Shown here: one piece after another, positions 58,766 to 62,400 of the stretch | Numbering within the stretch: position 1 is the stretch's first letter | How the letters are laid out: each line of letters opens with the position of its first letter | Origin: Candidatus Lindowbacteria bacterium RIFCSPLOWO2_12_FULL_62_27 | GTDB lineage: Bacteria > Lindowbacteria > 2-12-FULL-62-27 | DNA: 64,000 nucleotides | Direction of reading: 5' to 3' | Assembly: GCA_001784175.1 (NCBI GenBank) | Contig: MFPR01000037.1 | Location: 23,959 to 87,958 of the forward strand | Notes under the pieces: model-generated | Databases searched by the model: none | Told to the model about the DNA's origin: nothing | The model's input: the letters and a program-made list of their open reading frames with translations, nothing else | Translations under genes and position numbers: made by a program

Positions 58766-58875
58766 GAATCCGGCTGCGGCTTGTCGACGTCTGATTCATT
58801 CATCGTCACGTTCGGGCTGCGACTTGAGTGATCCGGGCACTTGCGGGTGGCGGGTTCCGCATATATTTTCTGTTT

Positions 58876-59607
58876 GTGACTTCAGACTCCACTGGAACGC
58901 TTTACTTGATTCCCACGGCCCTGGGTCCGGCCGGCGATGCGGGATGCGTCGACGAGCGTGTCCGGGAGATTGTCCGGTCGCTGGACGGGCTGGTCGCGGA
59001 AAGCCGCAAGGGCGCGCTGTTGTTTCTCCGGACGGCCGGCAGCATGGACCGGAGCGGGACGATGCCGATTCGGTTGTTGAACGAACATTCCCGGCCCGCG
59101 GACCTGGAGGATCTGATCGAACCTGTCGCTCAGGGCGGTCCGTGGGGCTTGGTGTCGGACACGGGTTGTCCGGCCGTGGCGGACCCCGGCGCGGGGTTGG
59201 TGCGTCTCGCGCATCAAAAGGGGATCCGTGTCCGCCCTCTGGCCGGCCCCTCGGCGGTGTTGCTGGCGCTCATGGCGTCCGGCCTGAACGGCCAGCGGTT
59301 CGTGTTTCACGGATATCTTTCGCGGATCGCGCAGGACAGAAAAAAGCAGATCAAAGAAATGGCCGCCGACTGCAAACGGAACGACCGGACCCACCTCTGG
59401 ATCGAAACACCGTACCGGAATCTGGCCGTGTTCGACGACCTGATCCGTCATGTCGAGCCTTCCCTCCATCTGTGCCTCGCCGTCGATCTGACGCTCCCGA
59501 CCGAGGACATCCGGACGCGCACGGTCGGCGGCTGGCGCGCAGCGTCCAAACCAGACCTGAAGGACCGGCCGGCTGTTTTTCTCCTCGGCCGGCCGGCGAT
59601 GATATAA
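58876..59607 (+). CDS. Tetrapyrrole-methylase-fold SAM-dependent methyltransferase (RsmI/YraL-like)
   Basis: GTLYLIPTALG..., GLVSDTGCPAVADPG and AGPSAVLLALMASGLNG. GTG 58876 is preferred as start; the ORF opens at 58828. Confidence 0.7.
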   Translation: MTSDSTGTLYLIPTALGPAGDAGCVDERVREIVRSLDGLVAESRKGALLFLRTAGSMDRSGTMPIRLLNEHSRPADLEDLIEPVAQGGPWGLVSDTGCPAVADPGAGLVRLAHQKGIRVRPLAGPSAVLLALMASGLNGQRFVFHGYLSRIAQDRKKQIKEMAADCKRNDRTHLWIETPYRNLAVFDDLIRHVEPSLHLCLAVDLTLPTEDIRTRTVGGWRAASKPDLKDRPAVFLLGRPAMI

Positions 59608-59608
59608 T
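59600..59608 (+). promoter_or_regulatory. Candidate extended -10 promoter (TGaTATAAT) giving a near-leaderless transcript
   Basis: TGATATAAT ends 8 nt before ATG 59617, and no Shine-Dalgarno lies in the 9-nt gap. There is no good -35 element. Confidence 0.3.
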
Positions 59609-59616
59609 ATCCGCAC

Positions 59617-61047
59617 ATGAACTCCCCTGCGGACTATTACGCCGATCCCCACGTGCGTGAGCGGATCGCCGAATATTGTGGCGGCGTTGGCGCGGAGCCG
59701 ATGTCTTTTTCGGCGGAGTATCTGGTCGGATACGGCGCCTATCTGAAATCGTCGGCGCACAAGGAATATTTCTCGTCGGACGTTTCCAACTTTCACTGGA
59801 TTCTCGATCACGGCCTCGACATTTTCAGGTCGGTCTGGGACAAGGAGTCGACGGTGGTGGTCTTGGACGTCGAATACTTCAATATCGATTATCCCGGCGA
59901 AATCTATCATGACCCGGCCGCCTGTTTTCTCAAGCTGGAGCCGTTCCATGAAGTCGTTCAGAAAAAATTTCAGGAATGGGGGATTCCCCATCTCACCATC
60001 ATGACCGGGCAGGGCTACCATTTCGCTTTCAAAGTCCTTGCCGATTCGCCGGCCGACCAAACGCTGGAGCGGATCGGCTGCCTGCCCGACTCCCTGGTGG
60101 GCAAGTACACCGCGACGTCCGAGCACCGGCACCGGCGCGTGTCGCTGAAACACGGGCGCGCCTTCGACGGATTGGGCCGGGTCATGGAGTACGTCGGCCA
60201 CGAACTCGTGCGGGCCACGGCGGGCGTCGGGCCGGTCCCGGTCGTGTTTTCGGATATTGCGGTCGGCAGCGTTGATGGGCGGTACCGGGAGGCCATCTCC
60301 GTGGATCTGACGGCCTACGGCGACCCGATTTTCATGAGGGACATTCGTTGCCCCTTCTCCACGCATCAAAAGCACAAAGTACAGGTCTACAAGGTCGGAC
60401 AACGCATCGCGCGGGAAATCCCCGTGCAGATTTCCCTGCCGCGCCGGCCGGATACCCCGCTCCACGACCTGCTGACCCGCCGGCGAAACTTCGCGGCCGC
60501 CGCCGAAGTGGCGAAGACGGGCGACTGCATCCTGCCGGGCGCGGATGATCCGTTCGACAGGCTGATCCGGACGTATCTCGAAAGTCCCCTTGCGGCCTTT
60601 CACCGGGAATTCGATTCGGCCGATCACGACCCCTGGCAGGCGTGGCCGCGCACCTATGACCGGTTGAAACTGTCAAACCTTCCGCCCTGCATCGCCCTGC
60701 CGATCCGGCACCCCAACCCGAGCCTCCTGCAGCCGACGCATGTCCAGAACGTCGTGCGATATCTCTTCATGAACGGGTGGCATCCCAAGCATATCGGCGG
60801 GCTGATCCGGTCCAAATACGAGCGTCCCTACGGCTGGTCGGAGGACTGGACCCATTTCGACGCCTGCAGCCGCGCCAATTTCTGGGCCCGGCTCTACGCC
60901 GGCGCCCTGGCGGCGGGCCTCGACGGTCTCACCGATTTCAACTGCGTGTCCATGCAGGAGCGCCGGCTCTGCCCCAAACCCTGGTGCGGCCACAACCTCG
61001 CCGACATCCGCCCGCGGCCGGCCGCCCTGCGGCGATCGGCAAAGTGA
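59617..61047 (+). CDS. Archaeo-eukaryotic primase (PriS-like) catalytic domain fused to a PriL-CTD-like cysteine domain
   Basis: 476 aa with VVLDVEY (motif I), MTGQGYHFAF (motif II) and ISVDLT...RDIRCPFSTHQKHK (motif III region). The C-terminal half has LPPCIALP plus Cys417, 443, 452 and 457. Assignment is by remembered motifs only. Confidence 0.55.
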   Translation: MNSPADYYADPHVRERIAEYCGGVGAEPMSFSAEYLVGYGAYLKSSAHKEYFSSDVSNFHWILDHGLDIFRSVWDKESTVVVLDVEYFNIDYPGEIYHDPAACFLKLEPFHEVVQKKFQEWGIPHLTIMTGQGYHFAFKVLADSPADQTLERIGCLPDSLVGKYTATSEHRHRRVSLKHGRAFDGLGRVMEYVGHELVRATAGVGPVPVVFSDIAVGSVDGRYREAISVDLTAYGDPIFMRDIRCPFSTHQKHKVQVYKVGQRIAREIPVQISLPRRPDTPLHDLLTRRRNFAAAAEVAKTGDCILPGADDPFDRLIRTYLESPLAAFHREFDSADHDPWQAWPRTYDRLKLSNLPPCIALPIRHPNPSLLQPTHVQNVVRYLFMNGWHPKHIGGLIRSKYERPYGWSEDWTHFDACSRANFWARLYAGALAAGLDGLTDFNCVSMQERRLCPKPWCGHNLADIRPRPAALRRSAK

Positions 61048-61097
61048 TATCATGATATCATGATGGCTATCATGATATCATGATATCATGATATCAC
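61044..61097. repeat. Tandem palindromic 8-mer array (TGATATCA) forming a 21-bp hairpin
   Basis: GTGATATCA TGATATCA TGATggctATCA TGATATCA TGATATCA TGATATCA C: five perfect units plus one interrupted. 61044-61064 pairs perfectly with 61077-61097. Confidence 0.9.
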
Positions 61098-61098
61098 C

Positions 61099-62400
61099 TT
61101 GGCCGGGCGCCCGTCTTTTTCGGAGGCGTTCCAGTTCTGGCTTAAACTCGGGTTCATCAGTTTCGGCGGGCCTGGCGGCCAGATCGCGATCATGCATGCC
61201 GAGCTGGTCGAAAGGAAACGGTGGATTTCGGAAGAACGGTTTCTTCATGCGCTGAACTACTGCATGATGTTGCCCGGCCCCGAGGCCCAGCAGCTCGCCA
61301 CGTACATGGGGTGGCTCCTGCACCGGACCGCCGGCGGCGTGGTGGCGGGTGCGCTGTTTGTGCTCCCGTCGTTTTTCATTCTGGTCGCCTTGAGCTGGGT
61401 GTATGTGACCTACGGGGCCGTTTCGTCCATTGCGGCGATGTTTTACGGCCTCAAGGCCGCCGTCCTGTCCATCGTTGCCGCCGCCGTGATCCGGATCGGC
61501 TGGAGGGCGCTCAAGAACGAGATGATGGTGATGCTCGCCGCATTGAGTTTTGTCGGAATATTTTTTGGCGGCGTTCCCTTTCCACTCATTATTATTTCTG
61601 CGGCGGTCATTGGGCTCATCGGCAGCCGGCTCCGGCCGGACAAATTCTGTACCATTGGGGGGAATCGAACCGACCCCCCTCCCGGCATCGGCTCCCACGC
61701 TGATCCATTGGAAGAACATACCCGGCCAAGTTGGCGCCGGGCCCTGACTGTTTTGGTTGTCTGTCTGACACTGTGGACCGGCGCGCTGGCCTGTCTCGCT
61801 GTCTGGGGCGGATCGGCGGGCATTTTTTATAAAATGGGGAAATTCTTTTCGAAAGCCGCAATGGTGACGTTCGGCGGCGCGTATGCGGTCCTGCCGTACA
61901 TCGCCCAGGCCGGCGTCGAAACCTATCACTGGCTTCAGCCGGGGCAGATGATCGACGGGCTGGGCCTCGCGGAAACCACGCCGGGGCCGCTCATTATGGT
62001 CGTCACGTTTGTCGGATACGTGGGCGCCTGGTCGAACCCGGCCGGCTTGACGCCGCCGGTGGCAGGGTTCGTGGGGGCGCTGGTCGCCACCTATTTCACG
62101 TTTCTGCCGTCATTCCTCTGGATTTTTCTGGGCGCGCCGTATATCGAGCGCACACGGGGCAACGCGCATCTGATGGGCACGCTTTCGGCCATCACAGCGG
62201 CCGTGGTTGGCGTGATCCTGAATCTGGCGGTTTTCTTCGGACTCCACGTTTTTTTTCCAACGCCGGGGGCCGTTGACTGGGCATCGTTCGTTCTGGCGGT
62301 CGTGACGTTTGTTGGTTTGTGGAAATTCAAATGGGATGTGGTGTACGTGGTATTGGGGAGTGCCATGGCAGGCCTGGCCTACCGTGCGATCGTCCATTAG
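61099..62400 (+). CDS. chrA: Chromate transporter ChrA
   Basis: 433 aa with FWLKLGFISFGGPGGQIAIMH and a second repeat ...MVTFGGAYAVLPYI, the duplicated CHR domain. TTG 61099 is the only canonical in-frame start after the stop at 61081. Confidence 0.85.
   Translation: MAGRPSFSEAFQFWLKLGFISFGGPGGQIAIMHAELVERKRWISEERFLHALNYCMMLPGPEAQQLATYMGWLLHRTAGGVVAGALFVLPSFFILVALSWVYVTYGAVSSIAAMFYGLKAAVLSIVAAAVIRIGWRALKNEMMVMLAALSFVGIFFGGVPFPLIIISAAVIGLIGSRLRPDKFCTIGGNRTDPPPGIGSHADPLEEHTRPSWRRALTVLVVCLTLWTGALACLAVWGGSAGIFYKMGKFFSKAAMVTFGGAYAVLPYIAQAGVETYHWLQPGQMIDGLGLAETTPGPLIMVVTFVGYVGAWSNPAGLTPPVAGFVGALVATYFTFLPSFLWIFLGAPYIERTRGNAHLMGTLSAITAAVVGVILNLAVFFGLHVFFPTPGAVDWASFVLAVVTFVGLWKFKWDVVYVVLGSAMAGLAYRAIVH

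What the first reader, a model, noticed from the sequence alone, without database searches (positions are those of the whole stretch)
59617..61047. Bacterial chromosomal gene fusing a PriS-like AEP primase core to a PriL-CTD-like cysteine domain
The 476-aa product carries the three archaeo-eukaryotic primase motifs in the right order and spacing.
- Motif I: VVLD84VE86Y (archaeal PriS has FDID).
- Motif II: MTGQGYH135FAF (PriS has SGRGYH).
- Motif III region: ISVD230LT...RDIRCPFSTHQKHK (PriS has D..R..RLP.S.H.K).

The C-terminal third begins LPPC358IALP...L.P.H..N..RYLF.NG. This resembles the PPC(I/M) motif and following helix of the primase large-subunit C-terminal Fe-S domain. It contains four further Cys (417, 443, 452, 457).

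Bacteria normally prime with DnaG. AEPs in bacteria are usually LigD-Pol or mobile-element PrimPols with different motif flavours. No phage, plasmid, helicase or integrase genes flank this gene. It sits between an RsmI-like methyltransferase and chrA and is bracketed by unusual palindromes.

A single-chain PriS+PriL-CTD enzyme in such a context could belong to an uncharacterised priming, repair or defence function.
Basis: partly seen in the sequence, partly recalled or inferred. Interest (0 to 1): 0.75.

Follow-up and report, generated by a model that had tools for sequence, protein, structure and literature searches.

The report
Unannotated chromosomal bacterial primase-like enzyme family

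Summary
It belongs to a self-contained family (625 clusters at 50% identity; at least 385 species genomes, all MAGs) with no hit in Pfam, NCBIfam, PADLOC or PDB sequences.

An AlphaFold model (pLDDT 92.9) matches only AEP enzymes, best Prim-PolC and LigD-Pol. D84, E86, H135 and D230 are at least 90% conserved, so the AEP-core claim holds at fold and motif level.

The PriL-CTD claim does not hold up:
- The C-terminal domain modelled alone (pLDDT 90.7) has no PDB neighbour.
- hhalign and HMM tests against validated PriL-CTD sequences score no better than controls.
- The invariant cysteines are C358, C443, C452 and C457. C417 is not conserved.

New findings:
- The family is strictly chromosomal, with no phage, plasmid or viral relatives.
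- Its one recurrent partner is an MJ1311-type TIM barrel carrying endonuclease IV's metal ligands. It is adjacent in 11 of 26 lineages and fused in two proteins.
- Two lineages carry tandem, equally intact paralogues.

Best reading (about 0.4): a strand-break or abasic-site repair polymerase working with an Endo IV-like phosphodiesterase. The window's own genome region holds no such partner within 64 kb.

The parts
59617..61047 (+). Gene for the 476-aa AEP-fold / 4-Cys protein (stop codon included)
   Evidence: ORF; translation and residue positions; 234 full-length homologues; 625 clusters at 50% identity; AF2 model pLDDT 92.9, pTM 0.93
59704..60441 (+). AEP-like catalytic domain (about residues 30-275)
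   Evidence: Foldseek against PDB: Prim-PolC, LigD-Pol, CAPP Prim-Pol, human Pri1 and PriS are the only significant hits. BFVD hits are phage primases. Beta-strands 78-89, 133-141 and 225-230 carry the three motifs.
59866..59874 (+). Motif I, D84-V85-E86 (metal-binding acidic pair)
   Evidence: D84 and E86 at least 90% conserved; kept in both tandem paralogues; located in strand 78-89
60013..60021 (+). Motif II, G133-Y134-H135
   Evidence: Y134 invariant; G133 and H135 at least 90% conserved; located in strand 133-141
60304..60306 (+). Motif III, D230
   Evidence: At least 90% conserved; lies at the end of strand 225-230
60346..60378 (+). R244-C-P-F-S-T-H-Q-K-H-K254, the probable nucleotide-binding element after motif III
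   Evidence: R244, F247, S248, Q251 and K252 invariant. It is the only stretch that lines up with human PRIM1 'KSPFSVHPKTG'. Spacing from motif III is 20 residues here against 18 in PRIM1.
60442..61044 (+). All-alpha C-terminal domain (residues 276-476) with four invariant cysteines; no known structural relative found
   Evidence: Modelled alone at pLDDT 90.7; no PDB neighbour; no PriL similarity
60688..60690 (+). C358 (first metal-cluster ligand candidate; P356-x-C358 at the start of a helix)
   Evidence: Invariant
60943..60987 (+). C443, C452 and C457 (C-x8-C-x4-C), the other three ligand candidates
   Evidence: Invariant. The 1+3 layout resembles NEQ395 C289/C364/C376/C384.
58828..59607 (+). 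RsmI-like TP_methylase-fold gene, 10 bp upstream; probably co-transcribed in this clade
   Evidence: NCBIfam best hits are RsmI but below cut-off. In the 74% and 70% identity relatives it overlaps the target's start by 4 bp.

Best explanation
The gene encodes a member of an undescribed, vertically inherited, chromosome-only family of AEP-superfamily nucleotidyl transferases.

Shown:
- The family has an AEP fold with an intact two-metal active site (D84/E86/D230 plus H135 and an S-x-H-x-K-like element).
- That core is packed rigidly against a new all-helical domain with four invariant cysteines (C358, C443, C452, C457).
- The family is recurrently linked, by adjacency and by fusion, to an MJ1311-type TIM-barrel enzyme that keeps the trinuclear-metal ligands of endonuclease IV.

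Inferred:
- The two proteins form a strand-break or abasic-site repair module. The Endo IV-like phosphodiesterase incises or cleans the lesion to leave a 3'-OH. The AEP domain then extends or fills the gap from NTPs or dNTPs, as Prim-PolC does after Endo IV in mycobacterial base excision repair.
- The cysteine domain binds a metal centre (4Fe-4S more likely than Zn) and holds the template or the downstream 5' end. That would make it functionally analogous to the helical accessory domains of other AEPs without being demonstrably homologous to PriL-CTD.

In the window's clade the partner is not adjacent. The gene is instead coupled to an RsmI-like methyltransferase gene.
For: - Fold: every significant Foldseek hit is an AEP. 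The best are Prim-PolC 6sa0 (E 1.9e-4) and LigD-Pol 2r9l (TM 0.55). The viral library gives primases.
- Catalytic residues and cysteines are conserved across phyla, in both tandem paralogues and in divergent members.
- The model is rigid and confident (pTM 0.93).
- Partner: PF01261 TIM barrel, adjacent and co-oriented in 25 of 28 loci that have it. That is 11 of 26 lineages clustered at 60% identity, in both gene orders. It is fused in P0149 and P0170.
- The partner aligns to validated E. coli Nfo at 96.5% probability. Ligands H109, E145, D179, H182, H216, D229, H231 and E261 are matched by invariant or near-invariant residues. Its closest solved relative is MJ1311 (E 1e-41), listed as the predicted Endo IV homologue of M. 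jannaschii (PMC2770678).
- Precedent: Endo IV 3'-end processing followed by Prim-PolC gap filling (PMC5663958).
- Chromosomal only: no relatives in phages, plasmids or IMG/VR; no PADLOC hit; neighbours are housekeeping genes.
Against: - No biochemical data exist for any member.
- There is no sequence-profile link to any curated AEP family. The AEP call rests on a predicted structure with modest TM-scores (0.35 for the query, about 0.5 for the target).
- No ligase, Ku, glycosylase or other repair gene is a conserved neighbour.
- The partner is not a bona fide Nfo. It scores at most 37 bits against a cut-off of 130, and its best NCBIfam hit is CbiR, a small-molecule phosphodiesterase.
- From my own recollection of the MJ1311 structure paper, which is not held in the library, MJ1311 lacks Endo IV's DNA-binding groove.
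- More than half of the lineages, including the window's, have no adjacent partner, and none lies within the 64-kb window.
- Frequent operon partners are RNA-related (RsmI-like, hisS/aspS, phoH/ybeY-type).
- Metal binding by the cysteines is inferred from conservation only. I could not inspect model coordinates.
Confidence: 0.4

Rival explanations
1. One reading: a single-chain primase in which a PriS-like core is fused to a PriL-CTD homologue carrying a 4Fe-4S cluster. It would perform de novo priming (replication restart, or a DnaG-independent priming task) like the monomeric N. equitans primase or PolpTN2.
For: - AEP triad and a PFS-x-H-x-K element resembling PRIM1 'SPFSVHPK'.
- The 1+3 cysteine layout (spacings 85, 9, 5) resembles NEQ395 (75, 12, 8).
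- Seven of 59 members give weak PF04104 hits, the commonest weak hit.
- Helical accessory domains fused to AEPs are the rule for primer initiation (PMC5862659).
Against: - The CTD model has no PriL, PriX or PriCT neighbour in PDB.
- hhalign gives 0.7-1.9%, equal to controls. The PriL HMM scores at most 2.6 bits against 3.9 for shuffled sequences.
- The family profile finds no PriL chain in PDB even at E up to 10.
- A presumably spurious family (Terminase_5) gives almost as many weak Pfam hits (6 of 59).
- The nearest folds are repair AEPs, not PriS.
- The model is a single rigid globule (pTM 0.93), whereas NEQ395's PriS and PriL domains are flexibly linked.
- Tandem, equally active paralogues and the Endo IV-like partner are not primase features.
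Confidence: 0.2
2. The enzyme does not act on polymeric nucleic acid. The AEP-like palm domain transfers or condenses nucleotides on a small substrate (a nucleotide-containing cofactor, envelope precursor or signalling oligonucleotide), and the CbiR/MJ1311-like partner hydrolyses the corresponding phosphodiester, as in a synthase/phosphodiesterase pair.
For: - The partner's best NCBIfam match is the cobamide-remodelling phosphodiesterase CbiR. MJ1311 itself is uncharacterised.
- One divergent member carries an N-terminal CBS pair.
- cNMP-binding Crp-like regulators sit directly upstream in several Elusimicrobia loci, and REC-GAF-GGDEF proteins in four loci.
- The architecture is compact and rigid.
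- Very high cross-phylum conservation (mean column identity 52%) is typical of metabolic enzymes.
Against: - All structural neighbours are template-dependent polymerases or primases.
- No AEP is known, to my knowledge, to act on non-nucleic-acid substrates.
- No cobamide, envelope or signalling gene is consistently linked across lineages.
- The CBS fusion is a single, possibly artefactual gene call.
Confidence: 0.2
3. An RNA-end repair or processing module. The phosphodiesterase removes 2',3'-cyclic or 3'-phosphate ends of damaged tRNA or rRNA, and the AEP restores nucleotides.
For: - Translational coupling to an RsmI-like rRNA methyltransferase paralogue in the window's clade.
- The gene order target > TIM barrel > hisS > aspS > phoH > HD protein in many loci.
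- Prim-PolC-type AEPs prefer rNTPs.
Against: These operon neighbours are lineage-restricted synteny and could be incidental. No RtcB, Pnkp/Hen1 or other RNA-repair gene is linked. There is no direct evidence for RNA binding.
Confidence: 0.12
4. An anti-phage defence or mobile-element replication protein, as for most non-LigD bacterial AEPs.
For: The general rule from Kazlauskas et al. 2018 that bacterial AEPs are nearly exclusively MGE-borne. Weak BFVD matches include a 'TOTE conflict system primase domain'.
Against: - No PADLOC hit, and PHROGs gives only E 0.67.
- No relatives in 50,697 phage records, 72,556 plasmids or 2.9 million viral contigs.
- Synteny with housekeeping genes is stable across relatives.
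- No integrase, helicase or nuclease-toxin neighbours.
- Conservation is far higher than is usual for defence genes.
Confidence: 0.03

Closest known systems
Prim-PolC / LigD-Pol (bacterial NHEJ and BER AEPs; PDB 6sa0, 5op0, 2r9l, 2iry)
   Same: Best structural neighbours (E 1.9e-4 to 6e-3, prob 1.00, target TM 0.44-0.55). They share the acidic triad plus histidine, are chromosomal bacterial enzymes, and Prim-PolC acts after Endo IV processing.
   Different: No detectable sequence similarity. No ligase or Ku is linked. The target has an extra 200-aa four-cysteine helical domain and a roughly 60-aa conserved N-terminal extension. Its partner is fused or adjacent rather than merely interacting.
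Monomeric PriS-PriL fusion primases (N. equitans NEQ395; PolpTN2 of plasmid pTN2)
   Same: Single chain with an AEP core at the N-terminus and a helical cysteine-bearing domain at the C-terminus. The cysteine layout is 1+3 (NEQ395: C289/C364/C376/C384). NEQ395 is also chromosomal.
   Different: The NEQ395 and PolpTN2 C-domains are recognisable PriL homologues by HHpred. The target's is not, by Foldseek, hhalign or HMM. NEQ395's domains are joined by a long flexible helix, whereas the target is predicted to be one rigid unit (pTM 0.93). The target is bacterial and has an Endo IV-like partner.
MGE-borne bacterial AEP + PriCT-1/PriCT-2 families (PrimPol-PV1 supergroup; Kazlauskas 2018)
   Same: An AEP domain followed by an alpha-helical accessory domain.
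   Different: Those families are nearly exclusively on phages, plasmids and ICEs, and are often fused to helicases. The target family has no MGE relatives, no PriCT Pfam hit and no helicase.
Endonuclease IV (Nfo) / MJ1311 / CbiR (for the partner protein, not encoded in the window)
   Same: PF01261 TIM barrel. Eight Nfo metal ligands align with conserved residues, and the ninth (H69, matching H85) lies outside the aligned block. MJ1311 is the closest solved structure (E 1e-41).
   Different: Scores are far below the NCBIfam nfo and CbiR cut-offs. The substrate is unknown. CbiR shows that this superfamily also cleaves small-molecule phosphodiesters.

Membership tests
AEP superfamily | AEP catalytic fold (RRM-like palm with the characteristic strands) | tested here: met
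   The AF2 model (pLDDT 92.9) hits only AEPs at significant E-values in PDB (Prim-PolC, LigD-Pol, CAPP, Pri1, PriS, pRN1), and phage primases in BFVD. TM-scores are modest (0.35 query, 0.44-0.61 target).
AEP superfamily | Motif I (hhhDhD/E), motif II (sxH) and motif III (hD/E) in order on beta-strands, and conserved | tested here: met
   D84/E86 in strand 78-89, H135 in strand 133-141 and D230 at the end of strand 225-230. All are at least 90% conserved and kept in paralogues and divergent members. Structural superposition of these residues on a known active site could not be inspected.
AEP superfamily | Sequence-profile match to a curated AEP family | tested here: not met
   No Pfam or NCBIfam hit for the window protein. 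No AEP Pfam family is hit by any of the 59 members at E up to 10. The profile search against PDB finds no AEP. hhalign against human PRIM1 gives 0.4%.
AEP superfamily | Primase and/or polymerase activity | not testable with these tools
   Needs biochemistry.
PriS (replicative primase small subunit) | Closest structural and sequence relationship to PriS/Pri1, with a separate or fused PriL partner | tested here: not met
   PriS 5of3 and 1zt2 score only E 0.38-0.44, prob 0.25-0.33. Human Pri1 scores E 0.025, TM 0.27-0.33. These rank below LigD-Pol and Prim-PolC. No PriL gene lies in any locus. Only the PFS-x-H-x-K element resembles PRIM1.
PriL C-terminal Fe-S domain (PF04104) | Fold similarity to solved PriL-CTD structures | tested here: not met
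   The CTD-only model (pLDDT 90.7) against PDB gives a best E of 3.2 at prob 0.02, with no PriL, PriX, PriCT or photolyase hit. PDB holds at least 20 PriL-CTD chains. Caveat: the model is apo and all-alpha, where Foldseek is less sensitive.
PriL C-terminal Fe-S domain (PF04104) | Sequence-profile similarity | tested here: not met
   hhalign against human p58C gives 1.9% (control 2.3%). Against a 62-sequence eukaryotic profile it gives 0.7% (controls 0.8-1.7%). HMM scores reach at most 2.6 bits, against 3.9 shuffled and 3.1 reversed. Residual signal: 7 of 59 members give PF04104 hits, best E 0.002. Archaeal PriL profiles were not available.
PriL C-terminal Fe-S domain (PF04104) | Four conserved cysteines, one N-terminal and three C-terminal, ligating a 4Fe-4S cluster | tested here: inconclusive
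   The pattern is present: C358 plus C443/C452/C457 are invariant, and the layout resembles NEQ395. Spatial clustering and metal content could not be checked.
LigD / LigC repair complexes | Genomic or physical association with an ATP-dependent ligase (and Ku for LigD) | tested here: not met
   No ligase or Ku cluster occurs among the neighbours of 79 loci with +/-8 kb flanks, nor in the Pfam-annotated contigs.
MGE-borne AEP-PriCT primases (PrimPol-PV1) | Encoded on a phage, plasmid or integrated element; PriCT-1/2 domain | tested here: not met
   No tblastn hit in phages or plasmids, and none in IMG/VR. No PriCT Pfam hit. Neighbours are housekeeping genes.
Endonuclease IV (partner protein, related loci only) | Nine ligands of the trinuclear metal site | tested here: met
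   hhalign of A3 against Nfo gives 96.5% (E 8e-10). H109, E145, D179, H182, H216, D229, H231 and E261 align with H127, E169, D200, H203, H225, D234, H236 and E265. H69 matching H85 is plausible but lies outside the aligned block.
Endonuclease IV (partner protein, related loci only) | Scores above the curated Nfo model cut-off; AP-endonuclease activity | tested here: not met
   TIGR00587 scores at most 37 bits against a cut-off of 129.65. The closest relative is the uncharacterised MJ1311. Activity is not testable here.

The most novel reading that the evidence does not exclude
Several uncultured bacterial phyla (Elusimicrobiota, Hydrogenedentota, Auribacterota, Lindowbacteria and others) carry a native, vertically inherited AEP with its own, independently evolved metal-cluster initiation domain. 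On this reading it is a true primase-polymerase serving the chromosome (restart priming or repair priming alongside DnaG), not an MGE import. That would be a second cellular priming system in Bacteria and an ancient bacterial branch of the AEP superfamily.
Probability: 0.15. Interest if true: 0.85.

Novelty: new variant of a known kind. Interest (0 to 1): 0.62.

Why it matters
The current view is that bacterial AEPs are either LigD/LigC repair polymerases or belong to mobile elements (PMC5862659). This family fits neither description. It is chromosome-only, as conserved as a housekeeping enzyme, invisible to Pfam, NCBIfam and PADLOC, and confined to poorly known anaerobic candidate phyla.

It adds a new accessory domain with four invariant cysteines to the AEP repertoire. 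It also adds a new partnership with an Endo IV-type metallo-phosphodiesterase, supported by gene fusions.

If the repair reading is right, it defines a compact incision-plus-synthesis module and gives a first functional handle on the uncharacterised MJ1311 protein family. If the primase reading is right, it bears on how often helical metal-cluster initiation domains evolved and on DnaG-independent priming in bacteria. Either way the family merits a database model and is directly testable by expression.

Tried and rejected
1. Sequence libraries: Pfam, NCBIfam, PADLOC, PHROGs and PDB (phmmer and profile) gave no usable hits.
2. PriL-CTD homology was tested five ways and rejected at the sensitivity available: Foldseek on the CTD alone, hhalign against p58C, hhalign against a 62-sequence profile, HMM against shuffled and reversed controls, and a Pfam re-scan of ten members. 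I could not locate the seven weak PF04104 hits. I had no archaeal PriL sequences, because the NEQ395 paper's supplement is not held.
3. PriS homology by hhalign against validated PRIM1 was not significant.
4. Mobile-element or defence origin was rejected.
5. The flanking palindromes as part of the system were rejected: the array is absent from all related loci. My interim idea that chrA is a recent insertion was corrected, because chrA abuts the gene in a 70% identity relative.
6. Proteins matching only the C-terminal domain (P0256, P0259, P0197) look like chimeric or truncated metagenomic calls and were not used.
7. There is no TIM-barrel partner and no second paralogue in the 64-kb window.
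8. The other neighbour clusters (DUF374, LpoB, Crp-like, GT1, GGDEF, MobB, RlpA, DUF401, sulfatase and others) are lineage-specific and give no consistent signal.
9. The MJ1311 structure paper could not be retrieved. My statement that MJ1311 lacks a DNA-binding groove is recollection only.
Full report
OBSERVATION. The ORF at 59617-61047 (+) exists and encodes 476 aa. The flanks are as stated. An RsmI-like gene ends 10 bp upstream; its best NCBIfam hits are RsmI, at 98 bits against a cut-off of 168. chrA starts 51 bp downstream. The surrounding genes are an MMPL transporter, QueG, DUF1802, DoxX, flagellin and an FAD oxidoreductase. No phage, plasmid, helicase or integrase gene is present. The window has no tRNA or Rfam hit.

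A REAL, UNANNOTATED FAMILY. The protein has no hit in Pfam, NCBIfam, PADLOC or PDB sequences, and only E = 0.67 in PHROGs. It nevertheless has 234 word-indexed homologues, almost all 455-495 aa and full length, at 42-74% identity, and all unnamed. An exhaustive profile search finds 625 clusters at 50% identity. A scan of GTDB species representatives finds relatives in 385 genomes. The 79 loci fetched are all MAGs: Elusimicrobiota/Endomicrobia, Hydrogenedentota, Auribacterota and other PVC-group bacteria, Lindowbacteria (the closest to the window, 67-70%), Schekmanbacteria, Wallbacteria, 'Clostridia' MAGs and Thermodesulfobacteriota. Mean column identity across these phyla is 52%, which is housekeeping-grade conservation.

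THE AEP CORE IS SUPPORTED AT FOLD AND MOTIF LEVEL. In the 59-sequence alignment D84, E86, H135 and D230 are at least 90% conserved. D68, R71, E108, Y134, E225, D236, R244, F247, S248, Q251 and K252 are invariant. The AlphaFold2 model is confident (pLDDT 92.9, pTM 0.93) and places the three motifs on strands 78-89, 133-141 and 225-230. All significant Foldseek hits against PDB are AEP enzymes: Prim-PolC (6sa0, E 1.9e-4), LigD-Pol from three organisms (target TM up to 0.55), CAPP Prim-Pol, the Methanocella NHEJ polymerase and human Pri1. PriS follows more weakly (E about 0.4), then the S-2L PrimPol, the MPXV E5 AEP domain and pRN1. The viral library returns phage primases.

There is no sequence-profile link to any AEP. 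None of the 59 members hits an AEP Pfam model even at E up to 10. Only 'RCPFSTHQKHK' lines up with PRIM1 'KSPFSVHPKTG'. The motif spacings are comparable: motif I to II is 49 residues here against 55 in PRIM1, and motif III to the S-x-H histidine is 20 against 18. The protein is therefore a new AEP-fold family, structurally nearer the compact bacterial repair AEPs than PriS.

THE PriL-CTD CLAIM IS NOT SUPPORTED. Residues 276-476 modelled alone are confident (pLDDT 90.7) and all-helical. Foldseek finds nothing in PDB (best E 3.2, prob 0.02) and no PriL, PriX or PriCT, although PDB holds many PriL-CTD chains. hhalign of the family's CTD profile against it gives 1.9% over 30 columns around 'PPC'. 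The control, the N-terminal domain against the same sequence, gives 2.3%. Against a 62-sequence eukaryotic PriL-CTD profile built, the value is 0.7% over 15 columns, with controls at 0.8-1.7%. A PriL-CTD HMM scores 229 family members at no more than 2.6 bits, against 3.9 for shuffled and 3.1 for reversed sequences. The family profile finds no PriL chain in PDB at E up to 10.

Two hints remain. Seven of 59 members give weak PF04104 hits (best E 0.002), but Terminase_5 gives six (best E 0.008), and ten re-scanned members gave none. Second, the cysteine layout of one plus three (C358, then C443-x8-C452-x4-C457) resembles the compact PriL domain of the N. equitans primase (C289/C364/C376/C384). 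I had no archaeal PriL sequences to test.

The conserved cysteine set is C358, C443, C452 and C457, all invariant. C417 is not conserved, C21 is nearly invariant, and the 'PPC' motif is really P-x-C. The model's pTM of 0.93 indicates a rigid two-domain globule, unlike the flexibly linked PriS and PriL domains described for NEQ395.

CONTEXT: CHROMOSOMAL, WITH ONE RECURRENT PARTNER. tblastn finds no relative in 50,697 phage records or 72,556 plasmids, and a pattern scan of IMG/VR confirms none. I called and clustered ORFs in the 79 loci. The only widely recurrent neighbour is a protein of about 280-305 aa with the PF01261 AP_endonuc_2 TIM barrel. It is adjacent and co-oriented in 25 of the 28 loci that have it. 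That corresponds to 11 of 26 independent lineages (60% identity clusters), in both gene orders, mostly with short gaps. Two family members, P0149 (747 aa) and P0170 (724 aa), are natural fusions to the same domain, which is a Rosetta-stone link.

The partner's invariant residues are H85, H127, E169, D200, H203, D228 and E265, plus H236. They align with the trinuclear-metal ligands of E. coli endonuclease IV (validated against 1qtw) at 96.5% hhalign probability: H109, E145, D179, H182, H216, D229, H231 and E261 are all matched. Its closest solved relative by far is the uncharacterised M. jannaschii MJ1311 (E 1e-41), which one paper lists as that organism's predicted Endo IV homologue. It is not a bona fide Nfo: NCBIfam nfo scores reach at most 37 bits against a cut-off of 130. 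Its best, sub-threshold NCBIfam match is CbiR, a phosphodiesterase acting on the cobamide nucleotide loop.

The other neighbours are lineage-specific and give no common theme: hisS, aspS, phoH, a 7TM-HD protein, DUF374, LpoB, Crp-like regulators, a glycosyltransferase, a GGDEF regulator, MobB, RlpA, DUF401 and a sulfatase. No ligase, Ku, helicase or glycosylase recurs.

THE WINDOW'S OWN CLADE. In the 74% and 70% identity relatives the RsmI-like gene overlaps the target's start by 4 bp, and the flagellin-DoxX-QueG-MMPL synteny is kept. chrA abuts the target in one relative and is absent in the other. No TIM-barrel partner and no second paralogue lies within the 64-kb window.

TANDEM PARALOGUES. 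Eleven loci, forming two lineages at 60% identity, carry a second copy directly downstream. It is 40-44% identical to the first and keeps every catalytic residue and cysteine. Two equally active-looking copies suggest a hetero-oligomer, not a catalytic subunit paired with a degenerate regulatory one.

MECHANISM. Shown: an AEP fold with an intact, conserved active site; a novel helical domain with four invariant cysteines; and a genomic and fusion link to an Endo IV-type metallo-phosphodiesterase. Inferred (about 0.4): a strand-break or abasic-site repair module. The partner would create or clean a 3'-OH and the AEP would fill or extend, as documented for Endo IV followed by Prim-PolC in mycobacterial BER. 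The cysteine domain would bind a metal cluster and grip the template or the 5' end.

Rivals are a true single-chain primase (0.2), a small-molecule or oligonucleotide nucleotidyltransferase paired with a CbiR-like hydrolase (0.2), RNA-end repair (0.12), and a defence or MGE function (0.03). The main weaknesses are the lack of any biochemistry, the unknown substrate of the partner, the absence of an adjacent partner in more than half the lineages (including the window's), and my inability to inspect model coordinates.

NOVELTY. Literature searches found no description of this family. The reference survey states that bacterial AEPs outside LigD are nearly exclusively MGE-borne, and that PriCT-type helical domains are exclusive to MGE-encoded AEPs. 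This family is a chromosomal exception with a new accessory domain and a new partner, so I rate it a new variant of a known kind. Interest is 0.62.

Noticed in passing
window 61040-61101: An AT-rich perfect-repeat palindrome made of six TGATATCA units (25-nt arms, 96% complementary) fills the 51-bp gap between the target's stop and the chrA start. It is unique in the window, absent from all 82 related loci, and carries sigma-70-like hexamers on both strands. It is possibly an operator or promoter for chrA.
   Followed up: partly
L006, L007, L009, L011, L012, L014, L018, L024, L026, L029, L043 (for example L043 8001-9413 and 9547-11043): Tandem paralogues of the family (40-44% identical), both keeping all catalytic residues and all conserved cysteines, in PVC/Auribacterota/Hydrogenedentota-type MAGs. 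This suggests a hetero-oligomer.
   Followed up: partly
P0149 (L080 562-2805) and P0170: Natural fusions of the family to the AP_endonuc_2 (MJ1311 / Endo IV-like) TIM barrel, in the same order as the usual gene pair.
   Followed up: yes
window 58828-59607; L081 9273-10004; L084 9258-10004: The RsmI-like gene scores well below the RsmI equivalog cut-offs (98-100 bits against 168). It is translationally coupled to the target in relatives by a 4-bp overlap. It may be a paralogue with a different substrate and not the housekeeping RsmI.
   Followed up: partly
window 59602-59607: A perfect TATAAT lies 9 nt upstream of the target's ATG, with no visible Shine-Dalgarno sequence. This could mean an internal promoter giving a leaderless or near-leaderless transcript, or it could be coincidence.
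   Followed up: no
P0196 (612 aa): A divergent family member has an N-terminal CBS-domain pair. It is a single case and could be a gene-call artefact.
   Followed up: partly
window 58882-60627 (- strand): A 581-aa antisense ORF overlaps the target gene. Similar long antisense ORFs formed a spurious 'cluster 5' in high-GC relatives. This is a GC-content artefact, not a gene.
   Followed up: yes
window 61099-62400; L081; L084: chrA is variably present next to the target within this clade. It is present in the window and in L084, where it abuts the stop codon, and absent in L081.
   Followed up: yes
P0256, P0259: Metagenomic proteins join a peptidase-U32-like or metallo-beta-lactamase-like N-terminus abruptly to the family's C-terminal domain. 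They are probably chimeric assemblies.
   Followed up: partly
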